The position numbers and the translations under genes were made by a program. DNA of 64,000 nt, taken from Escherichia phage vB_EcoS_ESCO30. The stretch is from the sequence record NC_106513.1; one strand, given 5' to 3'. Below are positions 1 through 54,310 of this stretch, in pieces. Within the stretch, counting starts at the first letter, position 1; every line of letters begins with the position of its first letter. Under the pieces are notes generated by a model. That model was not told the origin of the DNA, did not search any database, and saw only the letters and a list, made by a program, of their open reading frames with translations.

Positions 1-2
1 GA

Positions 3-386: not shown

Positions 387-2489
387 ATGATTTCAAATAA
401 TGCACCAGCTAAAATGGTTCTAAATAGCGTCTTAACTGGATATACGTTGGCGTATATCCAGCATTCTATTTACTCAGATTATGACGTTATAGGCAGATCT
501 TTTTGGCTAAAAGAAGGTAGTAACATTACTCGTAGAGACTTCACGGGTGTGGATACTTTCTCTGTAACTATTAATAATCTAAAACCTACAACAACTTATG
601 AAGTTCAGGGTGCATTTTATGATTCCATAATAGACTCTGAACTTCTTAATGCACAGATAGGTATTAATCTATCTGATAAACAAACTTTTAAAATGAAATC
701 AGCACCTAGAATCACGGGTGCTCGATGCGAGTCAGAACCAGTAGATGTTGGTGTTGGAGCACCAATAGTTTATATAGACACTACAGGGGAGGCCGATTAT
801 TGTACTATCGAGTTAAAAAATAATTCTAATGCTAATAACCCGTGGGTTAAATATTACGTTGGTGCGCTAATGCCAACTATTATGTTTGGCGGTGTACCAA
901 TTGGATCCTATAAGGTAAGAATTTCTGGTCAAATAAGCCTACCAGACGGTGTTACTATTGATTCGTCTGGGTACTATGAGTATCCTACTGTTTTTGAAGT
1001 TAATTATAATTTTGTTCCTCCTACCGCACCTACTAATATTGAATTTAAAGCAGCGCGTATTGCAGATGGTAAAGAACGCTATGATTTGCGTGTTCAGTGG
1101 GATTGGAATAGGGGTGCAGGTGCTAATGTTCGTGAGTTTGTTCTATCCTATATAGATTCAGCAGAATTTGCTAGAACTGGATGGACTAAGGCACAAAAAA
1201 TTAACGTGGGTGCTGCTCAATCAGCAACAATTATATCATTCCCATGGAAAGTAGAGCATAAATTTAAAGTGTCATCTATTGCCTGGGGACCCGGTGCTCA
1301 AGATGTTACTGATTCCGCAGTACAGACATTTATATTAAATGAGAGCACACCGTTAGATAATAGTTTTGTTAATGAAACTGGTATAGAAGTAAATTACGCG
1401 TACATTAAGGGTAAGATCAAAGACGGCTCTACTTGGAAACAAACTTTCCTGATAGATGCTGCTACTGGTGCAATTAACATTGGACTTCTAGATGCCGAAG
1501 GAAAAGCACCAATATCTTTTGACCCTATTAAAAAGATAGTTAACGTTGATGGAAGTGTAATAACTAAAACCATTAATGCTGCGAACTTTGTCATGACTAA
1601 TTTGACTGGTCAAGACAACCCTGCAATCTATACTCAAGGTAAGACTTGGGGAGATACAAGGTCTGGTATCTGGATGGGCATGGATAATACTACTGCCAAA
1701 CCAAAGCTAGATATCGGTAATGCTACACAATATATCCGCTACGATGGTGATACTCTAAGAATTTCTAGTGGGGTTGTGATTGGTACACCTAATGGCGACA
1801 TTGATATAGCAACAGGTATACAGGGTAAGCAAACAGTATTTATTTATATTCTAGATACTTCATTACCTGCTAAACCAACAAGCCCTGCATACCCACCTTC
1901 TGGTTGGTCTAAAACTCCACCGAATAGAACATCTAATACTCAGAATATTTACTGTTCTACTGGTACTCTGGACCCTGTTACTAATCAATTAGTATCGGGA
2001 ACTAGTTGGTCAGACGTAGTTCAGTGGAGTGGTACAGAAGGTGTTGATGGTAGGCCTGGAGCAGACGGTAAACCAGGTGCCGATGGCAGGCCAGGAGATA
2101 CAGGACAACGTGGTCCTGGAATGTATTCTCTTGCTATCGCTAATTTAACAGCATGGAATGATTCACAAGCTAATTCATTCTTTACATCTAACTTTGGTAC
2201 TGGCCCTGTTAAATATGATGTATTAACCGAGTATAAAAGTGGGGCACCAGGAACAGCGTTTACTAGGCAGTGGAATGGTTCAGCATGGGCTAGCCCTGCA
2301 ATGGTTTTACATGGTGACATGATAGTTAATGGTACAGTAACTGCTAGTAAAATTGTTGCTAATAACGCTTTCTTATCACAAATTGGTGTAAATATTATAT
2401 ATGATCGTGCAGCAGCACTATCCTCTAATCCAGAGGGATCTTACAAAATGAAGATAGACCTGCAAAACGGGTATATCCATATAAGGTAA
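387..2489 (+). CDS. tail baseplate/straight-fibre protein (T5 pb4-like) with collagen-like G-X-Y repeat
   Basis: 700 aa; [24 protein letters not shown] collagen-like stretch; Ser/Thr/Gly-rich beta-type composition; position upstream of L-shaped tail fibre. Confidence 0.55.
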
Positions 2490-2493
2490 AATA

Positions 2494-2916
2494 ATGAGTA
2501 CAGAAAATAGAGTTATTGATTTAGTAGTAGATGAGAACGTACCTTATGGTTTACTTATGCAATTTATGGATGTAGATGATAGTGTTTATCCTGCTACATC
2601 TAAGCCAGTAGATCTTACTGGCTTCTCTCTTAGAGGGAGTATTAAAAGTAGCTTAGAAGATGGAGCTGAAATTTTAGCATCCTTTACCACTTCTATTGTG
2701 GATGCTAGACAAGGTGTAGCGTCTATAAGTCTACCTGTTAATGCTGTAACTACTATTGCATCTAAAGCATCTAAAGAAAGAGATAGATATAACCCTAGAC
2801 AAAGGTTGGCTGGATACTATGATGTAATTATTACTAGAACAGCTGTTGGTAGCGCTACTAGTTCTTTCCGCATTATGGAAGGCAAGGTTTATATTAGTGA
2901 TGGGGTAACTCAATAA
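2494..2916 (+). CDS. small tail protein (possibly collar/Ig-like, T5 p132-like)
   Basis: 140 aa ORF tightly coupled between the two fibre genes (stop/start overlap with next gene). Confidence 0.4.
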
Positions 2917-5900
2917 TGGCTATAACTAAAATAATTTTACAGCAAATGGTCACTATGGACCAGAATAGCATAACTGCAAGTAAGTATCCTAAATATACAG
3001 TTGTGCTTTCTAATTCCATTAGCTCTATTACGGCAGGAGAACTAACTACTGCTATAGAATCCTCTAAAGCTTCTGCTGCAGCAGCTAAACAATCAGAGAT
3101 TAATGCTAAACAGTCAGAGCTAAACGCTAAAGACTCTGAGAATGAAGCAGAAATTTCCGCAGCATCTTCCCAGCAATCTGCAACTCAGTCTGCATCTTCT
3201 GCTACTGCTTCTGCTAATAGCGCTAAAGCTGCTAAGACTTCTGAGACTAATGCAAAAGCTAGTGAGACGGCTGCAAAAACTTCAGAAACCAATGCAAAGG
3301 CTAGTGAAACAGCGGCTAAAACTTCTGAGACCAATGCTAATAGTAGCAAAACTGCTGCTGCTGCATCTGCTTCCGCAGCAAAAACCTCAGAAACTAATGC
3401 TGCTGCATCTGCTTCTGCCGCTAAAACCTCTGAAACTAACGCTAATAGTAGTAAAACTGCTGCTGCTAACAGTGCTAGTGCTGCTAAAGCATCAGAAACC
3501 AATGCTAAGACCTCAGAAACTAATGCGGCTGCTTCTGCTACTAAAGCTGAAAACGCAGCTTCCGGTATGCGTGATTCTATAGGTTTAGGTAATGCCCCCC
3601 GTAATTGTCCTGATATTTCTGGTAATCCTTCTGCGTATATTGGCTTTATGCGTATCATGAGTACTGCGGTAGGCTTTCCATCAATAGCCTCTGGAGAAAG
3701 TAGTCTTACAGGATTTATTAGTCAAGTGGATGGTAGTCCAGCGTACACTGGTGTTTTCCAAGGATGGGCGTCCCGCTCATTATATACATATCGTTGGGCA
3801 AGCAACATAGGCCCACAGTGGACACGTCATGCTCGTAAGAATGAGGTTGATAAGCTCGTCCAACTAAGTTCTGAGACCCACCTATTAAACCCGGGTGATA
3901 ATGCTAAAATAATTATTACTTCCAATAAACTCTGGGGAGCTTATGATATAGAGAATAGGACATACATACCTCTTGCAGTAGGACAGGGAGGTACCGGGGG
4001 TAGATCAGCTGCTGAAGCAAGAGCTAATCTACAGCTAAACCGCTTCCAACGTTCCAGTGATACAAGAACCATCGTTTGTTCAACAGATGTTCAGGCGGAT
4101 GGCTGTTATTTACAGGTTGATGCTAGTGGTCAGTGGGGCGCATTTAATCCTATAACTGGTAAATGGCAACCTCTCGCAATAGCTCAGGGTGGCACTGGTG
4201 CTCTTAATACTTCTGACGCACGTAGAAATCTGGAAGTAATGTATCGTAGATTTTCTACCTTAACAGACCAGAACTTGAATGATCTTACGGGTGAGTCTAC
4301 AGGTTTCTACTACCAGGGTCTATCTGCTAATGCAACTGCAGCCCGTAATTATCCTATTCAAGAAGCGGGAAACTTAATGGTACTACAAAATGGTGCTAAT
4401 GGGGTTGCTGGATGTTGTCAAATATACATTACCTTTAGTACTAATAGGATATACGAACGTAGTTATAACCCAGGTACCTCAACATGGTCTGCCTGGGGAT
4501 CTATCCTTAATAGTTATGATCCTAGCTACTGTAGACAGCTTATTGAGCTAGGTTCCCAGCATGCACCATTATTTGCTGGTCTAGCATTAACTGGATATAG
4601 TAATAGTACGGTAGCTGCTGGAGGTATTATTAATAGCTATCTAAGAGCTACAGATGGTACTCAAAGGGTACGTATGCGCTTATATCCAGAGAAACTTGCT
4701 GATGGGGTTGCGGCTGCAACGCTACAGGTTATGGGGGAAGATACTGGTCCATCTTATAAAACATTCCATTTTAAACACAATGGCCAATTATACGTACCAA
4801 ATGAAATAAATACGGAGACTATATCTGTTAGGGATCTTACTGTAACCCAACGAAATTTAGGTATACCTACTACTGGATTTATGGGTGATTACCAGACTAT
4901 CAATGCACCCGCAGGTGCTGTAGATGGAAAATACTACCCAGTTATATTCTATACTGGAGGTACCAGTGGTTATGGTATTACGCCTGTACCTATATTTGTG
5001 CGTACTCCTGGTAGATCTGCATCCCATGAGATGAACAATAATGTTTTCTCTGGATATGTAGCTTGTGGGGGTTGGAGTGATAGTCCCACTATGGCACACG
5101 GCATGTTTACAACATACGATCCTAATGAACTAGGGATCTTATGTATAAAGGGTAGTAACAAAGACTACTCTCAGCATATAGCAGTGTATGTACACTATAA
5201 GGCATTCCCTGTAAATATTATGACAGACCCTAAGGTTGTGATAACTGTTCCAACTGAGGATTATGTATTGGGTACTAACGGTGTTAAATTTAAGTTTGGG
5301 GTAACAGATGCGGGTGATGGGAACACAGAAGGTAATGTGAGTAATATTCTAAACTTTACTGGTGGTGGTTCTGGTTACTACTCTACCCATCCTTTCCGCC
5401 AGGGATTATCTAATAATTTTGCCCTAACTAATAACCTTAGTACTGGAGATGCTTTTTCTGCTACTGCACCTTCTTTTACTTTTAATGGTAGTGTTGTCGG
5501 TGCTAATAGTTATTCTGCTAGAGGTGATGCTGTAACAAAAAATACGTATATATCTCAACTGGTAAATAGTGCCGATAACATAGTAGGACAGAGTGAGTTT
5601 AGGGCAACCGAAGAAGCAGGACAAATTATTGTTAGGGATATGACTAGTTCTGCTAGTCATAAATTCTTTAATTTTAATAAGGATGGGACCTTTTCAGCTC
5701 CTTCCGGTATTTTATCCTCTACTGGTATAGACTGGAATACACAACATAATATTATCAATAAGTTTTATGGTATTGCTGGTCAAGTTAATAGTCCTGAAAA
5801 CAATGTTGTTTTTGGTGGTGTACATATAGGTTTTAGTGGTAACTTTGCTACTCAACTAGCCGGTAGGGGTAGTAGATATTACCTGAGAAGTATTGAATCT

Positions 5901-6845
5901 GGCACTATAGGTGCATGGAATCGTATAATTACGGATCAATATGCTGATTTTAAAGCACAAATTTTTGCTAACAAAAATGGCGAAGCTATAACCATTAAAT
6001 CGACAGTGAATGACAACTCGGAATCTGGATATATCGCTGGTAGAAATAATACCAATACCCGTTTATGGTACGTAGGAAAATCCGGTCCTCAAGAAACTGT
6101 GGTTATCCGTAATGAGATGAACGGAAACCAAATACTATTAAGGGATGGTGCTGGCGATATAAGCTTGGATACAAAGGGTGGGAATAAGGTCGTATACGCA
6201 AACGCGTCGAACTTTAGGCTTATTAATAGTAACGGAAAGTATACAAGATTAGTAACATCCGGAACTTCAACTCATGCAATTAGCCTGGATAACTGGGGTA
6301 CAACTACAAGACCAACTGTATTTGAATGTAAGTACGAAAATCCTTCTACTTCTGCTAACGTTGGTTGGATATTCTATGGTCAAGTAAATACCGATGGATC
6401 TAGAGTATTTCAAGTTAATGGTGCCGTTAACTGTGTAACTTTAAATCAAAGTTCCGACCGTGATCTTAAAGACAATATTAAACCAATCAAAGACGCAACA
6501 AATGCTTTGCGGAAAATGAATGGTTATACATATACACTTAAAGAAGACGGCTTACCTTATGCGGGTGTTATTGCTCAGGAAGTGATGGAGGCTCTACCTG
6601 AAGCTGTAAGTGGATTTACAAAATATACAGATCTTGAGGGACCTACTCTTACTGGAGAACAATTAGTTGGTGAAGAAAGATTCTACTCAGTAGACTATGG
6701 AGCAATTACCGGGTTATTAGTACAGGTAAGTAGGGAATCTGATAGTAGGATCACAGCTCTAGAATCAGAAGTATCTGATCTTAAAAAGCAAATTGCAGAC
6801 CTAACTCTAGTAGTTAACTCTTTGTTAGCAAATAGGGCACAGTAA
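2916..6845 (+). CDS. ltf: L-shaped tail fibre protein with C-terminal intramolecular chaperone (peptidase S74-like) domain
   Basis: 1309 aa; N-terminal AKTSETNAKASETAAKTSETNA tandem repeats; C-terminal SDRDLKDNIKPI...GYTYTLKEDGLPYAGVIAQEV...coiled-coil chaperone-domain signature. Confidence 0.8.
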   Translation: MAITKIILQQMVTMDQNSITASKYPKYTVVLSNSISSITAGELTTAIESSKASAAAAKQSEINAKQSELNAKDSENEAEISAASSQQSATQSASSATASANSAKAAKTSETNAKASETAAKTSETNAKASETAAKTSETNANSSKTAAAASASAAKTSETNAAASASAAKTSETNANSSKTAAANSASAAKASETNAKTSETNAAASATKAENAASGMRDSIGLGNAPRNCPDISGNPSAYIGFMRIMSTAVGFPSIASGESSLTGFISQVDGSPAYTGVFQGWASRSLYTYRWASNIGPQWTRHARKNEVDKLVQLSSETHLLNPGDNAKIIITSNKLWGAYDIENRTYIPLAVGQGGTGGRSAAEARANLQLNRFQRSSDTRTIVCSTDVQADGCYLQVDASGQWGAFNPITGKWQPLAIAQGGTGALNTSDARRNLEVMYRRFSTLTDQNLNDLTGESTGFYYQGLSANATAARNYPIQEAGNLMVLQNGANGVAGCCQIYITFSTNRIYERSYNPGTSTWSAWGSILNSYDPSYCRQLIELGSQHAPLFAGLALTGYSNSTVAAGGIINSYLRATDGTQRVRMRLYPEKLADGVAAATLQVMGEDTGPSYKTFHFKHNGQLYVPNEINTETISVRDLTVTQRNLGIPTTGFMGDYQTINAPAGAVDGKYYPVIFYTGGTSGYGITPVPIFVRTPGRSASHEMNNNVFSGYVACGGWSDSPTMAHGMFTTYDPNELGILCIKGSNKDYSQHIAVYVHYKAFPVNIMTDPKVVITVPTEDYVLGTNGVKFKFGVTDAGDGNTEGNVSNILNFTGGGSGYYSTHPFRQGLSNNFALTNNLSTGDAFSATAPSFTFNGSVVGANSYSARGDAVTKNTYISQLVNSADNIVGQSEFRATEEAGQIIVRDMTSSASHKFFNFNKDGTFSAPSGILSSTGIDWNTQHNIINKFYGIAGQVNSPENNVVFGGVHIGFSGNFATQLAGRGSRYYLRSIESGTIGAWNRIITDQYADFKAQIFANKNGEAITIKSTVNDNSESGYIAGRNNTNTRLWYVGKSGPQETVVIRNEMNGNQILLRDGAGDISLDTKGGNKVVYANASNFRLINSNGKYTRLVTSGTSTHAISLDNWGTTTRPTVFECKYENPSTSANVGWIFYGQVNTDGSRVFQVNGAVNCVTLNQSSDRDLKDNIKPIKDATNALRKMNGYTYTLKEDGLPYAGVIAQEVMEALPEAVSGFTKYTDLEGPTLTGEQLVGEERFYSVDYGAITGLLVQVSRESDSRITALESEVSDLKKQIADLTLVVNSLLANRAQ

Positions 6846-6851
6846 AAAAGA

Positions 6852-6886
6852 AACCCCAGTGGACAAAATCCACTGGGGTTTTTTCT
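6852..6886. terminator. bidirectional rho-independent terminator
   Basis: AACCCCAGTGG-loop-CCACTGGGGTT hairpin flanked by A-run upstream and T-run downstream, between convergent gene blocks. Confidence 0.7.
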
Positions 6887-6887
6887 A

Positions 6888-7097
6888 TTATTCGCTTCTA
6901 CAACCTTCTATAATACCAAGATTATAAATAGTTAATAGTATTTTTAAATGCTCATTGTCGTTATTAGTACAAAGTTCCACAAAACCTTCAGGATCCCAGA
7001 AAATAACATTACCCTCTTTATCTGTTTTTAGTACAACCATTTCTGGTTCAGTAGTTTTAATCTGATAAGTTGACGCATTAGTATCAATACCTACCAT
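6888..7097 (-). CDS. hypothetical protein
   Basis: Six-frame ORF trimmed to internal Met to avoid overlap with dut. Confidence 0.35.
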   Translation of the reverse strand: MVGIDTNASTYQIKTTEPEMVVLKTDKEGNVIFWDPEGFVELCTNNDNEHLKILLTIYNLGIIEGCRSE

Positions 7098-7113
7098 ATT
7101 AGGATCAACAAAA

Positions 7114-7560
7114 TTACTTGCTTCCTGAGCTTCCAAATCCACCTTCTCCACGAATAGTCTCCCCTAGTTCGTCAACGATTTCAAAATTATGAGTTGAGTA
7201 GTGTGGTACTACTACTAGCTGACAAAGTCTTTCAAAATTTTCCAGAGTTTGAATTTCAGAACCATAGTTATAAAGGTTCATCTTAATAGTTCCACGATAG
7301 TCTGAGTCAATCACTCCTGCGGTGTTTGCAATCATCAGATGACGCTTACCTAAGGAGCTACGAGGGACCACCAAACCGAACCAACCTCGCGGAATTTCTA
7401 CCGCGACACCGGTGTCAATCATAAGAGATTTGCCTGGTGCAATAGCACGTAAATCTGCAGCAGGATTAGTACCAAAGAATGCTCGCAGATCCATACCTGC
7501 TGCATCTTCGGAACCAATCTTAGGCATACAATCTGGATGGGTTAATTTAATTTTAATCAT
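7114..7560 (-). CDS. dut: dUTP diphosphatase
   Basis: 148 aa; dUTPase motifs (AAGMDLRA, IDSDYRG, GGFGSSG). Confidence 0.85.
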   Translation of the reverse strand: MIKIKLTHPDCMPKIGSEDAAGMDLRAFFGTNPAADLRAIAPGKSLMIDTGVAVEIPRGWFGLVVPRSSLGKRHLMIANTAGVIDSDYRGTIKMNLYNYGSEIQTLENFERLCQLVVVPHYSTHNFEIVDELGETIRGEGGFGSSGSK

Positions 7561-8432
7561 TGTCCTGCAATCTCCAAAATATCTTTTGTAAATTTATCTA
7601 ATACATCTTGACCTACCGCAGCAATAGCATCCACACAGTAGGTAGGTAAATCAACCAGAATTAGGTTTCGATAAAGCAATTCTTCTGAAGCATTTAAATT
7701 CTGTATATATTTCTGTTTTCCAGGCAGTGGAAGCTGATCAATAATATCCAGAACGTTACCAAATTCACGAATAATGTTATATCCGCGCTTTGCCCCAATA
7801 CCTTCAACACCTCGGATATTATCTCCTAAATCACCCATAATTGCTTTCAGGGAGATGAACTGCTCTACATCGTCAACATTATGATGCTCATACATATCAC
7901 GAAGATGATATTCACGACGTGTTGTGAAAGAGAAGCGAGAAACTTTGTCAGTTAATAAAGTATCCCAGTCACCATCGGTAGAAATTAGCCAAACATGATC
8001 ATATAGATGCCCAATCAGCTTAACAATATAAGCTGCCATGTCGTCTGCTTCTACGCCCCGAATAGTGAAAGTTGGGAATGTAGTTTCACATAACTCGAAA
8101 GCATCTTTCAAATATTCGAAGAACTGCTCATCTAACGCTTTCTCCTCTTCCGTACGCTGCGAGTATTTCTCATCTCGGTTCCCTTTATACTCGGGGAGAT
8201 GCTCTAGGCGGAATGCGGACTTCCCTTTATCTCCTAAAACTATTGTAGTTCTAGCAGAATAAGATTTTGCTAGAGACTGAATAGTGGAAACATAACTTGA
8301 GGCAAATGGTTTTTTACTATTGTTATGCTTGAAGCGAAAGCCTAAGTTAGTTCCATCGACAATCATTAGGTTACGACGGGAAGCCATTTCAGCTTCCTCT
8401 TCTTCAATAAATTTTCCCCAGGATTTACTCAT
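7557..8432 (-). CDS. flap endonuclease / 5'-3' exonuclease (T5 D15-like)
   Basis: 291 aa; MIVDGTNLGFR N-terminus and acidic-residue pattern of the FEN/5'-nuclease family. Confidence 0.8.
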   Translation of the reverse strand: MSKSWGKFIEEEEAEMASRRNLMIVDGTNLGFRFKHNNSKKPFASSYVSTIQSLAKSYSARTTIVLGDKGKSAFRLEHLPEYKGNRDEKYSQRTEEEKALDEQFFEYLKDAFELCETTFPTFTIRGVEADDMAAYIVKLIGHLYDHVWLISTDGDWDTLLTDKVSRFSFTTRREYHLRDMYEHHNVDDVEQFISLKAIMGDLGDNIRGVEGIGAKRGYNIIREFGNVLDIIDQLPLPGKQKYIQNLNASEELLYRNLILVDLPTYCVDAIAAVGQDVLDKFTKDILEIAGQ

Positions 8433-46745: not shown

Positions 46746-47128
46746 TAATTTAAAAGCTAGTAAATCGGTAGACGAAAGCCCAAGCATCTTACCTCGCAGC
46801 AGCGGTTGAAATACGAGGTTAAATAAGACCGCTGACCATACTATAAAGTATAATCTATTGGAGATTATGTTTATTACATCAGACATTTAATCTGACACGT
46901 AAAAACAAAGCGTCGTTGATATTACCGACACAACTTCAAAGATCAACATTTAAGTATGAAAGCTGAAAAGTTTAAAGAACTCAAACTTCTAAACTTCTAA
47001 AGCTAAAAGATGCAAAGTATTCGTTGATGATTCAAACCCTAGATCAAAGGTACATGGCTCGTAAGATATGGCCTGTGGCGCCTCTAGGCTGTTTATCGGT
47101 TTACTAGTTTCACAATTTAAAAATGTAT

Positions 47129-47157
47129 TTGCTAATTTATTAAGTTTTCTGTATAAT
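47129..47157 (+). promoter_or_regulatory. sigma70-like early promoter
   Basis: TTGCTA-17-TATAAT. Confidence 0.5.
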
Positions 47158-47187
47158 ATATTTTTAAATTGATGAAACGAGGCTATT

Positions 47188-47505
47188 ATGACTTTTCATA
47201 TTTTGATTGATGATGTGCGTAATCTTCACGGAATGGACATTATCATTCGAACCCCAGAAGCCGCTGTCGAGTTTCTGAATAAAACTGATACCACAGGCCA
47301 CTTCGTTTATATGGATAATGACTTGGCTGTAGATGGTATGGAAGGTTATCAAATTCTTCGTTTACTCTTAGAATTTGGGCAGAGACCAAAGAAAGTGGTA
47401 CTAGTAACCTCGAATCCCGTAGCTAAGCAAACTATGCGTAATGATTTGCTTGACTTGGGATACAAAGAAAACCCCAATCGTATTGAATATGATTGGCAGG
47501 AGTAA
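47188..47505 (+). CDS. hypothetical protein with receiver (CheY-like) domain-like motif pattern
   Basis: ILIDDV N-terminal acidic pair, YMDNDLAVDGMEG mid acidic pocket, VVLVTS, downstream Lys: order typical of REC domains. Confidence 0.35.
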   Translation: MTFHILIDDVRNLHGMDIIIRTPEAAVEFLNKTDTTGHFVYMDNDLAVDGMEGYQILRLLLEFGQRPKKVVLVTSNPVAKQTMRNDLLDLGYKENPNRIEYDWQE

Positions 47506-47510
47506 AAAGA

Positions 47511-47960
47511 ATGAAGGCAGCTTTGCTTTTAGTAGCTGCCCTTACCTTCAGCTTTAGTAGTCAGGCATCGCACGATGCAAAAGAAATAGATTGCATTGCT
47601 AAAAATATCTATTTCGAAAGTCGTGGTGAGGGCATAAAGGGAATGACGGCGATTGCACATGTTACTAAAAACCGTGTAAACTCCGGTAAATTCCCAGATT
47701 CCTACTGTAAAGTAGTATATCAGTCTAACCAGTTCTCTTGGGTATCTAAGAGACCAAAAGTTGATAAAACTGATGAGGCTTGGCAAACCGCTAAGAATTT
47801 AGCTAGAGTGATATACTACGTTGATTTACCACAAGATCCTACATATGGAGCACTTTACTTCCATAGTGGTAAAGATAAACCTTACTGGACAAAGAAGTTT
47901 AAGAAAACAACTAAGATTAAGGGACATACGTTTTATAAACCTGTTGTCACTAAAACTTAA
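47511..47960 (+). CDS. secreted SleB/CwlJ-like cell wall hydrolase (Hydrolase_2 family)
   Basis: Signal peptide MKAALLLVAALTFSFSSQA; IAKNIYFESRGE...AIAHVTKNRV motif block. Confidence 0.55.
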   Translation: MKAALLLVAALTFSFSSQASHDAKEIDCIAKNIYFESRGEGIKGMTAIAHVTKNRVNSGKFPDSYCKVVYQSNQFSWVSKRPKVDKTDEAWQTAKNLARVIYYVDLPQDPTYGALYFHSGKDKPYWTKKFKKTTKIKGHTFYKPVVTKT

Positions 47961-48198: not shown

Positions 48199-48642
48199 AT
48201 GGAAGAGAATATTTTAGATGTTTTGCGTAGAGCTTTGCAGGATTCTAAGTTTAATGGTTCTGATAAAGAAGTCGCTAAAAGCTATCAGACCATAATCGGG
48301 GATCTTCAGCGTATTGATAAAGATTTCATCACTTCTGAACAATTTGTGTCTTATCTCAAAGCTCAACTAAAAAGCATTAACCAGATGAAAGCTAAACTTC
48401 ATGGTCAAGATCTTGATAGTTATAGCTTGCAGTCCGCTCAGTATGAATACATTCTAAATAAGTGGTTGCAGGAGTATCTGCCTCCTCAGTTATCTGATAC
48501 TGAGATTCGTAAATACTTTGCAGAATTAGTTAAGCTAAACCCTGGAATTACAAAAGGTATGCTGATGAAAGCGATTAAGGAAGAATTTCCTGGGCGTTAT
48601 GATGGTGGTACTGCTGCTCAGATTGCTGGCGAATTTAATTAA
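48199..48642 (+). CDS. GatB/YqeY-domain-like protein
   Basis: 147 aa; YLPPQLSDTEI and KGMLMKA...G..DG motif pattern resembling bacterial YqeY. Confidence 0.45.
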   Translation: MEENILDVLRRALQDSKFNGSDKEVAKSYQTIIGDLQRIDKDFITSEQFVSYLKAQLKSINQMKAKLHGQDLDSYSLQSAQYEYILNKWLQEYLPPQLSDTEIRKYFAELVKLNPGITKGMLMKAIKEEFPGRYDGGTAAQIAGEFN

Positions 48643-48650
48643 AAATTTAT

Positions 48651-48679
48651 TTGCTAAATGCTTATAAATTCTGTATAAT
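48651..48679 (+). promoter_or_regulatory. sigma70-like early promoter
   Basis: TTGCTA-17-TATAAT. Confidence 0.5.
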
Positions 48680-48902
48680 ATATTCATAAATTAGAGAACA
48701 GCGAGCCGATTACGCTGAGTGCAGAATCCCAACCGGAGCGCATTGAATAGAGTCGGTGGGTTAGTTGGAAAACTAGTACACAGGGGGCGGCAATCCCGGT
48801 TAGTGGCTAGAACGTGTAAAATGAGGCGTCTGAAACCTCTCCCCTAAACTCTTCTCTAATTTACTGATAGTGGGGTGTGGAAATCACTTATGTAGTAACA
48901 CT

Positions 48903-48974
48903 GCCGATCTAGTATAAACGGTATTATCAAGCCGTAACTGGTGGAAGATGTAGGTTCGAATCCTACGGTCGGTA
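48903..48974 (+). tRNA. tRNA-like element (anticodon not assignable)
   Basis: 7-bp acceptor pairing (2 G-U) and consensus T-arm GTAGG-TTCGAAT-CCTAC; D and anticodon arms do not fold canonically. Confidence 0.3.
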
Positions 48975-49476
48975 AGAACTGGATAACTGGTGCTTTTAAC
49001 GTAAAAGCTTCCGAGGTTAGTTGCGCACTGCCTAAACCACGCGGTAGTTGGTTCCAGACTAACCAACCAGTCTGCTGAATAGTTTTATTACGATTTAACT
49101 ATGTCCAGGCATAAAGAAGAACTTTAGAAGGTATTCTAGGTAGTGAAGTTTTTCCTCCATATCGGAGTAGTTTTTCAAGCTATCCACAAAGTGGGAAATG
49201 ATGGCATGAGAGATGCCACTAATGGTGCACAATAGCACAGGTAATTCGCGATAACCCCTGTTGAGTAGCAGCAAAAAGGTGGGGAGTCATGACCCTAACC
49301 TAACCGAGTCCTCAGTATACCGCAGGACATAACCACTAAGTCACCTTGACTTAAACTGGAAAATAATAGACGTTACTGTATTTTGTCTTGAAATACTTAA
49401 TGAGTGAGACTTATGACTCTCCCGGTATCGTCTGTATTTTTAAGAGTTTTTACGAGAGTTCTTAAAAATACTTAAA

Positions 49477-49548
49477 CGGGGTGTAGTCTAAGGGAGAGGC
49501 AGGAGTCTTCTAAATTCCTTTATGCAGGTTCGAATCCTGTCACCTCGG
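49477..49548 (+). tRNA. tRNA-Arg (anticodon TCT)
   Basis: Hand-folded cloverleaf; loop CTTCTAA; T-arm GCAGG-TTCGAAT-CCTGT; encoded CCA. Confidence 0.6.
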
Positions 49549-49585
49549 CCAATTTTATTAACTGTAACTAAGACAAAGGAAATAT

Positions 49586-50533
49586 ATGTTTAATACTAAA
49601 AATATGAAAGAACTGACTTCTGAGCAAAAAGTAATTCGCACTATTAAACGTTGGGGTATTGGTGCTGTAGTTGGTTTAGCAGGTTTAATCCTAGCTTTTA
49701 ATTCATATACTATTGTTTCTGATGGTACGGTTAAAACCCAAACATTTCTGGGTAAAGTAGATCCTAACCCAGTATTACCTGGTTTCCATCTTGTAAACCC
49801 ATTTGCATCTTTCGATACTTTTAGTACAAAAGATATTGCTGTAAAATTAGATAAACTTCAGGTTCCTAGCCAGGATAAGTTTAAATCCACTGTTGACCTG
49901 ACTGTTATGTTACAATTTGATGGTTCTAAGGCACCGATCAACCGTATTAACGCAGGTACTCAGGATCAGGCGTTAGATAAGTATGTAACTGAGAAATTGC
50001 TATCTACTATTCGTGAATTTGGTAAGTCTGTTCCTAAAGCACAAGATTTGTTTGACGCTAAAATTCAGGCACAATTGCAAACCGCAATTCAACAGGAAGT
50101 TGAAGAGTATGCACGCCCCTATGGTTACACAGTTAAGCAAGTATTCCTTCAGGATATTACATTGCCACCGGTAATTATGGAACAGGTACAGAATACCAAA
50201 GTTCGTGAAGAACAAGTTAATGCTGCGAAAGCTGAATTGGCTCGTGTTGAACAAGAAGCACAGCAGAAGGTTAAACAAGCAGAAGCAGATCGTGAAGCTC
50301 GTAACAACCAAGCTATTGCAAACGAACGTGATGCAGATGCTAAACTGTACGCAGCTAAGAAAGAAGCTGAAGCTAACGCTGCTCTGCAACGTACTATTAC
50401 TCCTGAGATGATTCGTTGGAAACAACTAGAAGTTGAAATGATTCGTGCTCAGAAATATCAAGGTGGTGTACCGCAAACAGTAGTTGGCACTGGTTACGAT
50501 GGCCAGATGATTATGGATATGCGTAACAAGTAA
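49586..50533 (+). CDS. SPFH/band-7 (prohibitin/HflC-like) domain membrane protein
   Basis: N-terminal TM helix, ...PGFHLVNPF... SPFH start motif, long C-terminal coiled coil. Confidence 0.55.
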   Translation: MFNTKNMKELTSEQKVIRTIKRWGIGAVVGLAGLILAFNSYTIVSDGTVKTQTFLGKVDPNPVLPGFHLVNPFASFDTFSTKDIAVKLDKLQVPSQDKFKSTVDLTVMLQFDGSKAPINRINAGTQDQALDKYVTEKLLSTIREFGKSVPKAQDLFDAKIQAQLQTAIQQEVEEYARPYGYTVKQVFLQDITLPPVIMEQVQNTKVREEQVNAAKAELARVEQEAQQKVKQAEADREARNNQAIANERDADAKLYAAKKEAEANAALQRTITPEMIRWKQLEVEMIRAQKYQGGVPQTVVGTGYDGQMIMDMRNK

Positions 50534-50557
50534 TACCCACATGTAATATTCGAAGTA

Positions 50558-50596
50558 AGCCCTGCGTTCCCTGGAGAGCGCAGGGCTTTTCTGTAT
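50558..50596 (+). terminator. rho-independent terminator
   Basis: GCCCTGCG-loop-CGCAGGGC hairpin followed by TTTTCTG. Confidence 0.65.
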
Positions 50597-50607
50597 TTAA
50601 GGTAAAA

Positions 50608-50645
50608 GAAAAGCCCCTAAGTCTTTCGACTAGGGGCTTTATTGT
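50608..50645. terminator. second hairpin terminator (bidirectional)
   Basis: GCCCCTAG-TCTTTCGA-CTAGGGGC hairpin with A-run upstream and T-run downstream. Confidence 0.6.
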
Positions 50646-50653
50646 TTGGTTCT

Positions 50654-50848
50654 TTAGAACCATATACTCTTATTACAGCAACCACCCATACGGGAGGCCA
50701 ATCTTGACTGAAAATCTACTCTAGGGGGCAGGATAAGAGTAGGCTTAAAGGCAAAGGGATTGAACGCCGGTATTTGTGTAAACATTGCTGGAGAGCAACA
50801 ACGTGCTACAGGCATTGGGCAGCACGAAACAGATTTTCTGCAACACAT
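50654..50848 (-). CDS. hypothetical Cys-rich small protein (uncertain)
   Basis: 64 aa ORF, 8 Cys, immediately downstream of Gln-rich gene; may be non-coding. Confidence 0.2.
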   Translation of the reverse strand: MCCRKSVSCCPMPVARCCSPAMFTQIPAFNPFAFKPTLILPPRVDFQSRLASRMGGCCNKSIWF

Positions 50849-50857
50849 AATTCCTCC

Positions 50858-51274
50858 TTAGGAGTTATTATCACCATTTTGAGCTTTTGCAACTTGGCTT
50901 TGGCAGAAGCTATTAAACTTACCCATAAGTGATACAAGCTGTTTCCCATCCTCTGTCTTTGCGAAGTCTTCGAAAAGGGCTAGTACTGCCTGTCCTTCCG
51001 CAGAAACCTGCGGTTGTTGGGTTTGTTGCTGAACTTGCTGCTGAGCCACCTGTTGCTGCATTTGTTGAGGCATTTGCGACTGCCCGCTCATTTGCTGCAT
51101 CATTTGCATAGGACTCACACTTCCAGGGTTTTGCTGGAGTTGTTGCTGCATCTGTTGCGCTTCTGCTAAACGCTGTTGCAACTGTTGTAGGTAAGGGTTA
51201 TCCAGTCCCGGAACGGGCTGCTGGGAGCCCATTTGTTGATTAAATCCGTTGTTTACAAAACCATATTTACTCAT
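50858..51274 (-). CDS. Gln-rich low-complexity protein
   Basis: 138 aa; extended QQ/QM repeats; SD upstream. Confidence 0.5.
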   Translation of the reverse strand: MSKYGFVNNGFNQQMGSQQPVPGLDNPYLQQLQQRLAEAQQMQQQLQQNPGSVSPMQMMQQMSGQSQMPQQMQQQVAQQQVQQQTQQPQVSAEGQAVLALFEDFAKTEDGKQLVSLMGKFNSFCQSQVAKAQNGDNNS

Positions 51275-51295
51275 AATGGGCTCCTCCCCTTAATT

Positions 51296-52276
51296 TTAAG
51301 CCGGCAGTTTAGCCTGCAGACCAGCCAGAGTCTGAGTGATAGCACCAAGACTTACAGCGATTTGGTTGATTACCTGACCGTTTGCACCACTACCTGCAGC
51401 GATTGCTTCGCGCAGACGGCATTCATTCAGTTCGTCCTGGATACGTGCAGTAGTTACACCAGCGATTGCAGTCTGAAGCTCACAGCAACATTCAGCAAGC
51501 TGACGTTCGATAGCGTTCTGGTTAGCACACATCTGAGCCTGAACAGCGGCAAACTGGTTGTTGGTCTGAATAGACTGCTGGAAAGCAATCTGAGCAGAGT
51601 CAAACTTATCTTGAGCACGTGCTATCTGGTTAGCAGCGAAAGACTGATCCATCTGACGAGAAAGATCGAACTGACCCTGAATAACGTTACGAGTTTCAGC
51701 ACAGATCTGATTTGACAGATTAGCACCTGTACCATAGATAGTAGTCAGAACTTGCTGAGTGCTAGCAGCTTGAGCAGCTCCCACACCGTTTACTGCGCTT
51801 AGAACAGCCCCAGTGCCCTGGTTAGCTTCTGTACGAGTAGTATTGATTGCAGCTAGAATACTTGCAGTATCTTGGTTAGAAAGGATCGCGTCCACAGCAG
51901 TTCCTTCAGCGGCAACACCAACACCGCGACCAAAACCACCAAAACCACCAAATCCGCCTGTTAATAGAGCACCGATTAGGATAGCTCCGAATAGACCCAT
52001 ACCTTCTCCACCGAAAGCACTTGCGTTAGCTGGGAATGCACCCATGCCAGGGAAGCCGTTAGTAAATACGTTTACTGGTTCTTGCATTTTATGTTTTCCA
52101 TATTTATGACAATGTTCATCATCGTCATCTTCTTCATCTTTATCATCGTGTTCACGATGTTCTTCTTCGTAGGCTTTGACTTTCTCCCACTTTTTCTTAT
52201 CTGATTCCTCGTGACGATGCAGTTCTGCTGCTACGCTAGCGACGGTTTCAGGACTCTTAGCTACTTCTTCTGTCAT
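51296..52276 (-). CDS. hypothetical protein with acidic/His-rich N-terminus and Gly-rich hydrophobic segment
   Basis: Start set at MTEEV after strong AGGAGGTG SD; GLFGAILIGALLTGGFGGFGGFG segment; Ala/Gln-rich coiled C-terminus. Confidence 0.55.
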   Translation of the reverse strand: MTEEVAKSPETVASVAAELHRHEESDKKKWEKVKAYEEEHREHDDKDEEDDDDEHCHKYGKHKMQEPVNVFTNGFPGMGAFPANASAFGGEGMGLFGAILIGALLTGGFGGFGGFGRGVGVAAEGTAVDAILSNQDTASILAAINTTRTEANQGTGAVLSAVNGVGAAQAASTQQVLTTIYGTGANLSNQICAETRNVIQGQFDLSRQMDQSFAANQIARAQDKFDSAQIAFQQSIQTNNQFAAVQAQMCANQNAIERQLAECCCELQTAIAGVTTARIQDELNECRLREAIAAGSGANGQVINQIAVSLGAITQTLAGLQAKLPA

Positions 52277-52483
52277 TTTTTGACACCTCCTAGTATATAG
52301 AAAATGTGTGTCTCTTTGATCACTCATCCATAACATATACTTTACACTACCCCGGCGAAAATGTCAAGGGGTCTTTAAAAATTGCCCCCGGATTTTTAGT
52401 GGGGTCACAAATTTTGGTCCTCACCACTTATCTGCTACCCTTAAGTGCCCTATGATTTTCCCCTAAAAAGTTAAAAAATTTGA

Positions 52484-52512
52484 TTGCTTGAATGCTAAAT
52501 TCTCTGTATAAT
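52484..52512 (+). promoter_or_regulatory. sigma70-like early promoter
   Basis: TTGCTT-17-TATAAT plus conserved leader. Confidence 0.5.
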
Positions 52513-53061
52513 ATATCTATAAATTTGAGAGAGGAACCAAATATGAATGTTGATGAGCTAACACAGCACCTCTTATCTAGGGGATTTGATACTGATAAAT
52601 ATCATTGCTGGTTAAGTCCGGAAGGATGGCTAACAGTCCCGTTGTATGATTTCTCTGGGATGTTGAGGGGCTATCAAACTTATAATCCTTCTGCTCCAAA
52701 AGGTCATGGTAAGTGCCCCCTTGAAGCTAAATACTTTACTTATTCTACCACCCAGTGTGTATGGGGACTAGAAACTCTCAATGGAGATGAAAAAGTAGTA
52801 TTGATCGCTGAATCTGTATTTAAGGCAGTTGCGTTACATAACGCTGGTTATCCAGCCATAGCAATGTTGGGTTCTTCTCCAGGAAAAGCGTTATTAAAGC
52901 AACTAAAATTACTACCTTTTAAATTGGTAGCTGTTGGTGATAATGATCCTGCTGGTGAAAAATTTGCTAGAAAATTAAACGGTTTTGTTTCTCCCGTAGA
53001 TGTGGATGAGATGTCTACCGAAAACTTGAAAAATTTTCTTGCTATGAAGCTAAATTTCTAA
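52492..53061 (+). CDS. hypothetical protein
   Basis: 189 aa ORF; probable start at internal Met MNVDELT after GAGAGAGG SD. Confidence 0.45.
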   Translation: MLNSLYNISINLREEPNMNVDELTQHLLSRGFDTDKYHCWLSPEGWLTVPLYDFSGMLRGYQTYNPSAPKGHGKCPLEAKYFTYSTTQCVWGLETLNGDEKVVLIAESVFKAVALHNAGYPAIAMLGSSPGKALLKQLKLLPFKLVAVGDNDPAGEKFARKLNGFVSPVDVDEMSTENLKNFLAMKLNF

Positions 53062-54220: not shown

Positions 54221-54250
54221 CTCCTCCAAACAGAATTTTTAAAAATGTAC

Positions 54251-54280
54251 TTGCCTTTTGCTTTAAATTTCTGATATAAT
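54251..54280 (+). promoter_or_regulatory. sigma70-like early promoter
   Basis: TTGCCT-18-TATAAT plus conserved leader. Confidence 0.45.
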
Positions 54281-54310
54281 AGTTATATAAATTGATGAAG
54301 GAGTTAACGA

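What the first reader, a model, noticed from the sequence alone, without database searches (positions are those of the whole stretch)
49586..50533. SPFH/band-7 family membrane protein in a phage
The product has an N-terminal TM helix, SPFH-like core and long coiled coil typical of HflK/HflC/prohibitin-like proteins. Those proteins scaffold membrane microdomains and regulate FtsH. A phage copy could modulate FtsH-dependent proteolysis or membrane organisation during infection.
Basis: partly seen in the sequence, partly recalled or inferred. Interest (0 to 1): 0.45.

Follow-up and report, generated by a model that had tools for sequence, protein, structure and literature searches.

The report
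Phage T5 SPFH membrane-cage protein (T5.080)
The gene is a real SPFH/Band-7 membrane-scaffold gene, the already catalogued, lab-dispensable T5.080 of T5-like phages (mislabelled "lipoprotein"), and its supposed control of the host protease FtsH is plausible but untested.

Summary
Observation confirmed. The ORF at 49586..50533 (+) encodes 315 aa. It matches Pfam Band_7 (E 2e-17, 64 bits against a cutoff of 23.6). It has one N-terminal membrane helix and a long C-terminal helical region. Its model matches full-length cage-forming SPFH proteins: erlin, prohibitin, HflK/C, stomatin and QmcA.

The window is a T5-like phage. The protein is 99.4% identical to T5.080, which RefSeq and PHROGs call "lipoprotein". 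That label cannot be right, because the protein has no cysteine.

The family is a narrow SPFH clade:
- It is strongly conserved (dN/dS 0.02-0.06).
- It is shared at about 75% identity by unrelated virulent phage families, which implies horizontal transfer.
- It has stand-alone chromosomal relatives in Morganella/Providencia and in methylotrophic Gammaproteobacteria.

It matches no HflK/HflC-specific model, and no locus shows a paralogue, an NfeD gene or ftsH next to it. A published T5 knock-down screen scored it "Not Fit", and one natural T5-like phage has deleted it.

Best reading: an accessory, periplasm-facing, homo-oligomeric SPFH cage on the inner membrane, made early in infection. FtsH is the leading candidate client (about 0.3) but is unproven. 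Gene neighbours (a secreted cell-wall hydrolase, the antiholin rI, Ter genes) hint at an envelope role instead. The gene is already known, so interest is modest.

The parts
48651..48679 (+). Sigma-70-type promoter-like site (TTGCTA-17-TATAAT). It corresponds to T5 early promoter 'P 16-17' and is the likely start of the transcript carrying the RNAX region, tRNA-Arg and the SPFH gene.
   Evidence: 10 of 12 consensus matches. The T5 record annotates a promoter at the equivalent position. No other + strand promoter-like site lies between it and the ORF start.
49477..49551 (+). tRNA-Arg(TCT), 34 nt upstream of the ORF on the same strand.
   Evidence: ARAGORN; Rfam tRNA 49.3 bits; annotated as tRNA-Arg in T5.
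49576..49580 (+). Shine-Dalgarno sequence AAGGA, 5 nt before the ATG.
   Evidence: Read directly from the upstream sequence printed.
49586..50533 (+). SPFH/Band-7 protein gene, 315 aa plus stop; orthologue of T5.080 (YP_006908.1).
   Evidence: dN/dS 0.02-0.06.
49586..49651 (+). Residues 1-22: basic N-terminal tail (6 K/R, 2 D/E), predicted cytoplasmic.
   Evidence: Across the family, the mean K+R count is 2.8 on the N-flank and 1.2 on the C-flank, with N>C in 33 of 42 members. The topology is inferred from the positive-inside rule, not shown.
49652..49705 (+). Residues 23-40: single hydrophobic signal-anchor helix (WGIGAVVGLAGLILAFNS). It has no lipobox and no conserved signal-peptidase site.
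   Evidence: Hydropathy maximum. AF2 helix 12-38. The protein has zero cysteines. The alignment shows no conserved AXA or lipobox.
49706..50161 (+). Residues 41-192: SPFH1/SPFH2 alpha/beta core, with the family hallmark motif VPSQDKFK at residues 93-100.
   Evidence: Pfam Band_7 over residues 52-225. AF2 secondary structure. The motif is invariant in the phage clade and is shared with the cellular outgroup clade.
50168..50395 (+). Residues 195-270: one continuous 76-residue helix rich in Ala, Glu, Lys and Gln (CC1, the wall of an SPFH cage).
   Evidence: AF2; composition. It aligns with CC1 of the solved cages.
50402..50530 (+). Residues 273-315: the CC2 helix (273-290) and a conserved C-terminal tail (KYQGGVPQTVVG..G.MIMDMR) with short strands. 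These are the elements that close the cap in solved SPFH cages.
   Evidence: AF2, with low pLDDT after residue 291. Conservation in A1. The architecture of the solved cages is described in PMC12624060.
50557..50598 (+). Strong intrinsic terminator (13-bp stem with 8 G-C pairs, then a T-run), 24 nt after the stop codon.
   Evidence: The T5 record annotates an 'efficient bidirectional rho-independent terminator' here.
50609..50644 (.). Second G+C-rich hairpin (AGCCCCTA...TAGGGGCT) flanked by A-runs and T-runs on both sides. It probably terminates the convergent minus-strand genes.
   Evidence: Read from the sequence printed.

Best explanation
The gene encodes the T5.080-type phage SPFH protein. 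It is made early in infection from a transcript that also carries RNAX and tRNA-Arg. It inserts into the host inner membrane through one N-terminal signal-anchor helix, with the short basic tail in the cytoplasm and the SPFH domain in the periplasm. This is the same orientation as HflK/C in bacteria and prohibitin in mitochondria. Like every solved full-length SPFH protein with this TM-SPFH1-SPFH2-CC1-CC2-CT layout, it most likely self-assembles into a dome-shaped cage. Here the cage would be homo-oligomeric, of roughly 22-25 subunits judging from its 76-residue CC1 helix, and would fence off a patch of inner membrane. The fenced patch would hold or exclude particular membrane proteins. The single most likely client is the host AAA+ protease FtsH, whose periplasmic domain sits inside HflK/C cages. 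The phage would then dampen or redirect membrane-protein quality control so that phage-made and host envelope proteins, and the membrane itself, stay functional until lysis. The gene is an accessory fitness factor, not an essential one. Shown: family, architecture, conservation, dispensability and distribution. Inferred: topology (about 0.75), cage formation (about 0.8) and homo-oligomeric state (about 0.6). Speculative: FtsH as the client (about 0.3).
For: - Band_7 HMM match above cutoff.
- Full-length structural matches to erlin, prohibitin, HflK/C, stomatin and QmcA cages.
- The profile search of PDB sequences finds QmcA (3.6e-7), PHB2 (8.6e-5) and PHB1.
- The basic N-flank is conserved across the family.
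- No second SPFH paralogue lies nearby in any locus, which favours a homo-oligomer.
- The published regression of subunit number on CC1 length (y = 0.1782x + 10.22; PMC12624060) gives about 24 subunits for 76 aa.
- The promoter-tRNA-ORF-terminator layout fits an early transcript.
- Purifying selection is strong, dN/dS 0.02-0.06, and mean column identity across five phage lineages is 61%.
- The gene is dispensable in the laboratory: the CRISPRi-ART screen scored T5.080 'Not Fit' (7 guides, p 0.85; PMC11879866 supplement).
- Phage NG_S8 carries a clean internal deletion of the gene.
- The FtsH link rests on established knowledge. HflK/C cages enclose FtsH periplasmic domains (PMC12048511). Prohibitins regulate the m-AAA protease (reference cited in PMC12624060). 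These are the two bacterial-lineage SPFH systems (bacterial inner membrane, mitochondrial inner membrane) that share the topology predicted here; erlin shares it too but has no FtsH-type partner.
Against: - There is no evidence of any contact with FtsH.
- No HflK/HflC NCBIfam model is matched, and HflC scores only E 0.008 in the profile search.
- The best sequence match among solved structures is QmcA, whose SPFH domain faces the cytoplasm and which works with NfeD, not FtsH.
- Cellular members of the clade are never next to ftsH.
- E. coli already has HflK/C, so the benefit of a second cage is unclear.
- T5 is strictly lytic, so the classical Hfl phenotype (control of lambda CII) is irrelevant.
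- Gene neighbours point to cell-wall and lysis functions rather than proteolysis.
- The topology rests on the positive-inside rule only, and the oligomeric state rests on analogy only.
Confidence: 0.5

Rival explanations
1. Envelope-integrity or lysis-timing scaffold. The periplasm-facing cage works together with other phage proteins that act in the periplasm: the secreted SleB-type cell-wall hydrolase in T5-like, Privateer-like and ~150-kb phages, and the antiholin RI in T4-like phages. It would stabilise the inner membrane or corral holin/antiholin or hydrolase, so that the envelope survives until the programmed lysis time.
For: - The SPFH gene lies within 0.4-2.3 kb of a Hydrolase_2 gene, on the same strand, in all complete T5-like loci examined and in most loci of the ~90-kb Grimontviridae and uncultured ~125-153-kb phage groups. 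The Hydrolase_2 proteins are only about 40% identical between groups, whereas the SPFH proteins are about 75% identical.
- In the Enterobacterales-infecting T4-like loci examined, it directly follows rI (Pfam Antiholin) and rI.-1.
- In the ~150-kb phages it is fused to a TerC/TelA/vWA-TerF/TerD membrane-stress cluster.
- Bacterial SPFH proteins are tied to membrane-stress responses such as PspA (PMC8581546 abstract).
Against: - The linkage could simply reflect a shared accessory block, and these regions are hyper-plastic. The same block also carries tRNAs, cREC_REC, RtcB and YqeY.
- The T4-like placement is probably one ancestral insertion. In Aeromonas phages rI lies about 3 kb away.
- Cellular homologues have none of these neighbours.
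- The T5 holin/endolysin cassette was not seen next to the gene in the ~11-kb T5 stretch examined.
- Knock-down had no measurable effect on plaque-level fitness.
Confidence: 0.2
2. Superinfection exclusion or anti-defence device. The cage sequesters an inner-membrane host protein that competing phages or colicins need for entry, or a membrane-bound defence effector. This would protect the infected cell for the resident phage.
For: - The gene is an early, accessory, non-essential gene, yet it is strongly conserved and horizontally mobile between unrelated virulent phages. This is the typical profile of host-interaction and competition genes.
- It is adjacent to Ter genes in one phage group. From my own knowledge, not checked here, plasmid ter clusters confer phage inhibition and resistance to pore-forming colicins.
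Against: - It matches nothing in PADLOC.
- No literature support was found.
- Stand-alone housekeeping-context homologues in free-living bacteria argue for a generic membrane function.
- No target is suggested by any data here.
Confidence: 0.12
3. Cytoplasm-facing stomatin/QmcA-like scaffold. The protein inserts N-out/C-in and organises the cytoplasmic face of the membrane, for example replication or assembly sites.
For: QmcA is the best sequence match among solved structures (E 1.8e-6 with the single sequence, 3.6e-7 with the profile).
Against: - The 22-residue N-terminal tail carries 6 K/R, which is unfavourable for translocation. The bias holds in 33 of 42 family members.
- From established knowledge, QmcA has almost no N-terminal tail.
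- No NfeD-like partner gene was found in any locus.
Confidence: 0.1
4. It is a lipoprotein, as RefSeq and PHROG phrog_200 label it.
For: Only the database label.
Against: - The protein has no cysteine at all, so no lipobox is possible.
- 37 of 42 family members examined have no cysteine.
- The hydrophobic segment is followed by the conserved NSYT(I/V)V motif, not by a lipobox.
Confidence: 0.01

Closest known systems
Phage T5 gene T5.080 (YP_006908.1) and its orthologues in Tequintavirus and Epseptimavirus
   Same: 99.4% amino-acid identity. The position is the same: after RNAX and tRNA-Arg, and before the nick site and bidirectional terminator. It is the same gene.
   Different: Nothing of substance. 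The RefSeq/PHROG product name 'lipoprotein' is wrong. Other records call it an SPFH domain-containing, band-7-like, stomatin-like, PHB-domain or prohibitin-family protein.
SPFH ORFs of T4-like phages (RB43ORF139c, 44RRORF098c, Aeh1ORF064c; GAP161_127)
   Same: Same narrow clade, 60-80% identical in protein, with the same length and architecture. They were listed as SPFH/Band 7 hits in 2006 (PMC1524935), and the T5 record cites them.
   Different: They sit in a different genomic setting (after tk, rI and rI.-1) in an unrelated phage family (Straboviridae versus Demerecviridae).
E. coli HflK/HflC-FtsH complex
   Same: The domain order is the same (TM-SPFH-CC1-CC2-CT), and so is the predicted N-in/C-out topology with a periplasmic SPFH domain. 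Foldseek matches are full-length (7vhq, 7wi3, 9cz2). Established knowledge: the cage encloses FtsH (PMC12048511).
   Different: - Identity is only about 17-18%, and no HflK/HflC NCBIfam model is matched.
- It is a single gene rather than a K/C pair.
- It lacks HflK's long cytoplasmic N-terminus.
- The canonical PSQ-x5-KDN motif is shortened to VPSQDKFK.
- FtsH binding is untested.
Mitochondrial prohibitin PHB1/PHB2
   Same: Similar size (272-299 aa), an N-terminal anchor and the SPFH domain on the non-matrix side. PHB2 is the second-best sequence match among solved structures (E 8.6e-5). Some records name the phage protein 'prohibitin family'.
   Different: Prohibitin is a hetero-oligomer of two paralogues and is eukaryotic. 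Sequence similarity is marginal.
E. coli QmcA-YbbJ (stomatin/NfeD type)
   Same: It is the best sequence match among solved structures (8z5g; E 3.6e-7). Its cage is homo-oligomeric, as proposed here.
   Different: From established knowledge, QmcA is oriented with its SPFH domain in the cytoplasm and is paired with an NfeD gene. No NfeD-like gene lies near any member of this clade, and the basic N-tail predicts the opposite orientation.
Stand-alone chromosomal SPFH genes of Morganella/Providencia and of Methylococcaceae, Methylophagaceae and other Gammaproteobacteria
   Same: They belong to the same clade: 57-59% identity (Morganella/Providencia) and 31-41% identity (the others). They share the VPSQDK and NSYT.V motifs and have the same length.
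   Different: They are cellular genes in housekeeping neighbourhoods, without the phage neighbours. Their function is uncharacterised.

Membership tests
SPFH / Band 7 superfamily (Pfam PF01145) | Match to the Band_7 profile above the curated gathering score | tested here: met
   E 2e-17, 64.2 bits against 23.6, over residues 52-225. The Morganella and Methylophagaceae relatives also match.
SPFH / Band 7 superfamily (Pfam PF01145) | SPFH alpha/beta fold followed by long CC1 and CC2 helices and a C-terminal cap segment | tested here: met
   AF2 model with pLDDT 77.7. Foldseek gives full-length hits with probability 1.00 to erlin, prohibitin, HflK/C, stomatin, QmcA and flotillin. This is a prediction, not an experiment.
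SPFH / Band 7 superfamily (Pfam PF01145) | Membrane anchoring next to the SPFH domain | tested here: met
   A single hydrophobic helix at about residues 23-40, conserved across the family.
SPFH / Band 7 superfamily (Pfam PF01145) | Assembly into a large ring or cage oligomer | not testable with these tools
   Only monomer prediction is available. About 24 subunits is an extrapolation from CC1 length using the regression in PMC12624060.
HflK/HflC (FtsH modulators) | Match to HflK or HflC family models | tested here: not met
   No NCBIfam family is matched at E<=1. In the PDB profile search HflC appears only at E 0.008, with no stretch passing on its own.
HflK/HflC (FtsH modulators) | Two adjacent paralogous genes forming a hetero-oligomer | tested here: not met
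   A single SPFH gene is present in every phage and cell locus examined.
HflK/HflC (FtsH modulators) | Type II topology (N-in) with a periplasmic SPFH domain | tested here: inconclusive
   The positive-inside rule favours N-in (6 K/R against 2; the family-wide bias holds in 33 of 42 members). There is no experimental test.
HflK/HflC (FtsH modulators) | Physical association with FtsH and modulation of its proteolysis | not testable with these tools
   It needs pull-down, cryo-EM or substrate half-life assays. The reported HflK Arg191-FtsH 62-64 contact (PMC12048511) cannot be mapped reliably at 17% identity.
Stomatin/QmcA-NfeD operon type | Adjacent NfeD-family partner gene | tested here: not met
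   No NfeD hit among the neighbours scanned in the T5-like, T4-like, Privateer-like, ~150-kb phage, Morganella, Providencia and Methylophagaceae loci (precomputed Pfam).
Prohibitin family | Significant sequence relationship to PHB1/PHB2 and a hetero-oligomer of two paralogues | tested here: inconclusive
   The sequence relationship is weak but above noise (PHB2 E 8.6e-5, PHB1 E 4e-4). There is no paralogue pair.
Bacterial lipoprotein (the label in RefSeq and PHROG phrog_200) | Lipobox with an invariant cysteine after a signal peptide | tested here: not met
   The protein has zero cysteines. 37 of 42 family members have none.
Known anti-phage defence proteins (PADLOC) | Match to a defence-system protein model | tested here: not met
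   No PADLOC family is matched at E<=1.

The most novel reading that the evidence does not exclude
Virulent phages of several unrelated families carry and exchange a dedicated viral SPFH protein that builds a virus-made periplasmic cage on the host inner membrane. The cage either captures host FtsH (a viral HflK/C mimic) or works with secreted phage cell-wall hydrolase or antiholin proteins to control envelope integrity and lysis timing. That would be the first functionally defined virus-encoded membrane micro-compartment in bacteria.
Probability: 0.25. Interest if true: 0.6.

Novelty: already known. Interest (0 to 1): 0.3.

Why it matters
The presence of the gene is not news. It is T5.080. 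Many GenBank records already call it SPFH/band-7, and SPFH ORFs in T4-like phages were tabulated in 2006.

What remains open is what any viral SPFH protein does. The fold recurs in many phages and in giant viruses, and I found no functional study. The clade is strongly conserved, is swapped between unrelated phage families at about 75% identity, and is still dispensable in the laboratory. It is therefore likely to matter under natural conditions such as envelope stress, competition or particular hosts.

T5 is genetically tractable and SPFH cages are now easy cryo-EM targets, so the question can be tested directly. A practical by-product is that the 'lipoprotein' label propagated by PHROG phrog_200 and RefSeq should be corrected.

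Tried and rejected
- **NCBIfam and PADLOC scans:** no hits. There is therefore no HflK/HflC equivalog assignment and no link to a known defence system.
- **Literature:** 'T5.080' gave 0 papers. 'SPFH' with T5, 'phage-encoded', 'superinfection exclusion' or 'phage infection' gave only genome-annotation mentions. The BioReason-Pro and HIDEN-SEQ preprints were irrelevant. The PARIS paper confirms that T5 deletion variants in the tRNA region exist but does not say whether T5.080 is included.
- **The listing of cluster members** on ten distant representatives gave no names, only metagenomic sources.
- **The afdb50 fold library** was unavailable.
- **Two paper-reading runs** failed on a term that was too short. 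One script failed on a file name.
- **Cleavable Sec signal peptide:** considered and rejected, because no conserved AXA site exists and the NSYT.V segment after the helix is part of the conserved domain.
- **Lipoprotein:** rejected, no cysteine.
- **Virion component:** considered and set aside. The gene lies in the early tRNA/accessory region between early promoters, not among structural genes. This was not tested further.
- **Antisense ORFs within the gene** (for example 50000..50425 on the minus strand): treated as shadow ORFs, because the + frame shows dN/dS of about 0.05.
- **Prophage or defence-island origin of the Morganellaceae chromosomal copies:** their neighbours are ordinary metabolic and transport genes.
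Full report
**1. The observation**

An AAGGA ribosome-binding site lies 5 nt upstream.

Pfam PF01145 Band_7 matches residues 52-225 with E 2e-17 and 64.2 bits, against a gathering score of 23.6.

The other claimed features are also present.
- One hydrophobic helix lies at about residues 23-40, behind a basic 22-residue tail.
- The AlphaFold2 model, built on a 24-sequence family alignment (mean pLDDT 77.7), shows an alpha/beta SPFH core (41-192), one uninterrupted 76-residue helix (195-270), a second helix (273-290) and short C-terminal strands.
- Foldseek against the PDB returns full-length hits with probability 1.00 to essentially every solved SPFH cage: erlin1/2 (E 9e-15), prohibitin, HflK/C, stomatin, QmcA, flotillin and the vault shoulder.
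- Against T5-like orthologues the gene shows dN/dS of 0.02-0.06, so it is a real gene under strong purifying selection.

**2. What genome and what gene**

The region is 97.8% identical in DNA to T5-like phages such as chee24 and IrisVonRoten. The protein is 99.4% identical to T5.080 (YP_006908.1) of phage T5.

In the T5 record the gene follows 'RNAX' (a stable RNA of unknown function) and tRNA-Arg. A mapped nick site and an 'efficient bidirectional rho-independent terminator' come after it.

The window shows the same layout:
- a strong promoter-like site at 48651-48679;
- tRNA-Arg at 49477-49551;
- the ORF;
- a 13-bp-stem terminator at 50557-50598;
- a second hairpin that probably serves the convergent minus-strand genes.

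The gene therefore appears to be part of an early transcript that also carries stable RNAs. This is inferred from the layout and from the T5 annotation.

**3. The 'lipoprotein' label is wrong**

RefSeq and PHROG phrog_200 (E 1.7e-86) call the product a lipoprotein. The protein has no cysteine at all, and 37 of 42 family members examined have none. The hydrophobic segment runs directly into the conserved NSYT(I/V)V start of the domain, with no lipobox and no conserved signal-peptidase site. It is a signal-anchored SPFH protein. Other depositors already call it an SPFH domain-containing, band-7-like, stomatin-like, PHB-domain or prohibitin-family protein, or an 'HflC-type regulator of protease activity'.

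**4. The family**

tblastn finds the protein in 724 phage records:
- T5-like Demerecviridae, at 90-100% identity;
- T4-like Straboviridae of Klebsiella, Enterobacter, Cronobacter and E. coli (RB43, GAP161, the KP15 type), at 74-80%;
- Aeromonas T4-like phages, at about 60%;
- more distant hits in Vibrio and jumbo Aeromonas phages.

The word-indexed metagenome search adds ~90-kb Grimontviridae (Proteus phage Privateer, Cronobacter vB_CsaP_009) and uncultured ~125-153-kb phages.

A 3.8-kb piece of one such uncultured phage matches T5-like genomes at 75% nucleotide identity over the SPFH gene only, not over the flanks. This is direct evidence that the gene moves on its own between unrelated phage families.

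A profile search of 1.84 billion representative proteins finds only 1,979 sequences at E<=1e-3 and 346 at E<=1e-10. This is a narrow clade within the very large SPFH superfamily.

A scan of one genome per prokaryotic species finds chromosomal members in Morganella and Providencia (57-59%). It also finds members in Methylococcaceae, Methylophagaceae, other marine Gammaproteobacteria and Desulfocapsaceae (31-41%).

In a neighbour-joining tree the methylotroph/marine cellular group is the outgroup. A long branch leads from it to a clade that holds all the phages. The Morganellaceae chromosomal copies are nested in that clade, next to a T5-like phage contig. Phage-to-host transfer is therefore plausible for Morganellaceae, but the direction is not proven.

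The hallmark motif VPSQDKFK is a shortened form of the usual SPFH 'PSQ-x5-KDN' segment. Phage and cellular members share it.

**5. Sub-family placement**

No NCBIfam model is matched at E<=1, including those for HflK and HflC. Against PDB sequences, the best matches are QmcA (E 1.8e-6 with the single sequence, 3.6e-7 with the profile), then PHB2 (8.6e-5) and PHB1. HflC appears only at E 0.008.

No locus in phages or cells has a second SPFH paralogue, an NfeD gene or ftsH beside it. The protein is therefore a member of the SPFH superfamily. It is not a member of the HflK/HflC pair, nor of the QmcA-NfeD type.

The basic N-terminal flank (6 K/R against 2; N>C in 33 of 42 family members) predicts an N-in/C-out orientation. 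That would put the SPFH domain in the periplasm, as in HflK/C and, topologically, prohibitin and erlin. This is an inference from the positive-inside rule.

**6. Experimental knowledge**

I found no functional study of any phage SPFH protein. SPFH/Band 7 ORFs in 44RR, Aeh1 and RB43 were tabulated in 2006 (PMC1524935), and the T5 record cites two of them.

The transcriptome-wide CRISPRi-ART knock-down of T5 lists T5.080 as 'Not Fit': 7 guides, mean fitness -4.28, p 0.85 (PMC11879866, supplementary file 16). A natural T5-like phage, NG_S8, carries a clean internal deletion that removes window positions 49639-50410 of the gene. The gene is therefore dispensable in standard laboratory hosts, even though it is strongly conserved in nature.

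**7. Gene neighbourhood**

In all complete T5-like loci, a signal-peptide SleB-type cell-wall hydrolase (Pfam Hydrolase_2) lies 1.5-2.3 kb upstream on the same strand. A cREC_REC gene precedes it.
- In Privateer-like phages the order is Band_7, a small ORF, cREC_REC, Hydrolase_2.
- In the uncultured ~150-kb phages it is TerC, NinX, TelA, vWA-TerF, TerD, Band_7, a 116-aa ORF, Hydrolase_2.
- In Enterobacterales T4-like phages the gene directly follows rI (Pfam Antiholin) and rI.-1.
- In Aeromonas T4-like phages it follows tk and precedes a pseudopilin-like ORF and a DUF1190 gene, with rI about 3 kb away.
- Cellular members have none of these neighbours.

The recurring partners act in the periplasm or on the membrane, which hints at an envelope role. 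These are, however, plastic accessory regions that also carry tRNAs and RNA-repair genes. The linkage may be inherited rather than functional.

**8. Mechanism**

Every solved SPFH protein with the TM-SPFH1-SPFH2-CC1-CC2-CT layout forms a dome-shaped oligomer on a membrane (PMC12624060; structures). The most likely mechanism is therefore self-assembly into a cage that fences off a patch of inner membrane on its periplasmic face.

With a 76-residue CC1, the published regression of subunit number on CC1 length gives about 24 subunits. This is an extrapolation. With no paralogue present, a homo-oligomer is the simplest model.

For the client, FtsH is the leading single candidate, because the two bacterial-lineage SPFH systems with the same topology (HflK/C and prohibitin) both enclose FtsH-family proteases (PMC12048511; reference). 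I put this at only about 0.3. Nothing specific supports it, and the neighbourhood data point at least as much to envelope integrity or lysis timing (about 0.2). Superinfection exclusion or anti-defence is about 0.12, and a cytoplasm-facing QmcA-like role about 0.1.

**9. Verdict**

The family call is right. The FtsH interpretation is an untested analogy.

The gene is already known (T5.080) and widely annotated, and SPFH proteins recur in many phages and in giant viruses. Useful additions from this work:
- correction of the 'lipoprotein' label;
- definition of a narrow clade, shared between phages and Gammaproteobacteria, that moves horizontally between phage families;
- the conserved association with periplasm-acting phage genes;
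- the combination of strong purifying selection with laboratory dispensability.

Interest is modest (0.3). It would rise if a viral SPFH cage with a defined client were demonstrated.

Noticed in passing
window 48902-48975 (+): A tRNA-like element lies inside the region that the T5 record annotates as 'RNAX, stable RNA with unknown functions'. ARAGORN calls it tRNA-Ser with anticodon ACT, and Rfam scores it at 36.8 bits as tRNA. Some T5-like records annotate 'tRNA-OTHER' here.
   Followed up: partly
window 47116-47170, 48639-48693, 52475-52547, 54238-54298: A conserved element of about 55 nt is repeated in front of gene groups. One copy holds the TTGCTA-17-TATAAT promoter-like site. The copies correspond to the early promoters annotated in T5.
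   Followed up: partly
window 50654-52336 (-): A convergent three-gene block (orthologues of T5.079, T5.078 and T5.077) has a locally high G+C content (0.457 against about 0.38-0.40). It contains a Q-rich 138-aa protein. It also contains a 346-aa protein with an acidic/His-rich N-terminal part and a Gly-rich hydrophobic stretch. Neither has a Pfam match. The whole block (window 50686-52432) is missing in phage NG_S8.
   Followed up: partly
window 47188-47505 and 47493-47960 (+): A cREC_REC ('cyclic-phosphate processing receiver') gene sits directly upstream of, and slightly overlaps, a signal-peptide SleB-type cell-wall hydrolase gene (Hydrolase_2; RefSeq labels it 'endolysin'). The same cREC_REC-then-Hydrolase_2 pair lies beside the SPFH gene in Proteus phage Privateer, which belongs to a different phage family.
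   Followed up: partly
L004 (phage NG_S8, LC788711.1), locus 3950-4130: This natural T5-like phage has a clean internal deletion of the SPFH gene (window 49639-50410 absent). A 55-codon remnant ORF is left. It amounts to a natural knock-out.
   Followed up: yes
L005 (NZ_JBHSCL010000010.1, 178,077 bp, filed under Flagellimonas marina): This contig in a Flavobacteriia genome assembly carries rI and rI.-1 at 100% identity to Cronobacter phage GAP161, plus the SPFH gene. It is almost certainly a complete T4-like enterobacterial phage genome that contaminates the assembly. NCBI accordingly lists an 'SPFH domain-containing protein [Flagellimonas marina]'.
   Followed up: partly
L069/L070 (uncultured phage contigs of 124 and 49 kb; other contigs carrying the same protein reach ~153 kb), locus 1-7840: This phage group carries a tellurite-resistance-type membrane-stress cluster (TerC, TelA, vWA-TerF-like, TerD) immediately upstream of its SPFH gene and a Hydrolase_2 gene. 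No cultured relative was found in the phage collection.
   Followed up: partly
window 52492-53061 (+): A Toprim-domain ORF, orthologue of T5.076 ('DNA primase' in RefSeq). The CRISPRi-ART re-annotation table lists it as 'anti-defense, Known, Semi-Fit'.
   Followed up: no
L003 (Aeromonas phage 60AhydR15PP), locus 5026-5862: In Aeromonas T4-like phages the SPFH gene is followed by a 75-aa ORF with a prepilin-type N-terminal methylation motif and by a DUF1190 protein. The 2006 survey also listed an N-methylation-motif ORF (44RRORF097c) next to the SPFH ORF of phage 44RR.
   Followed up: no
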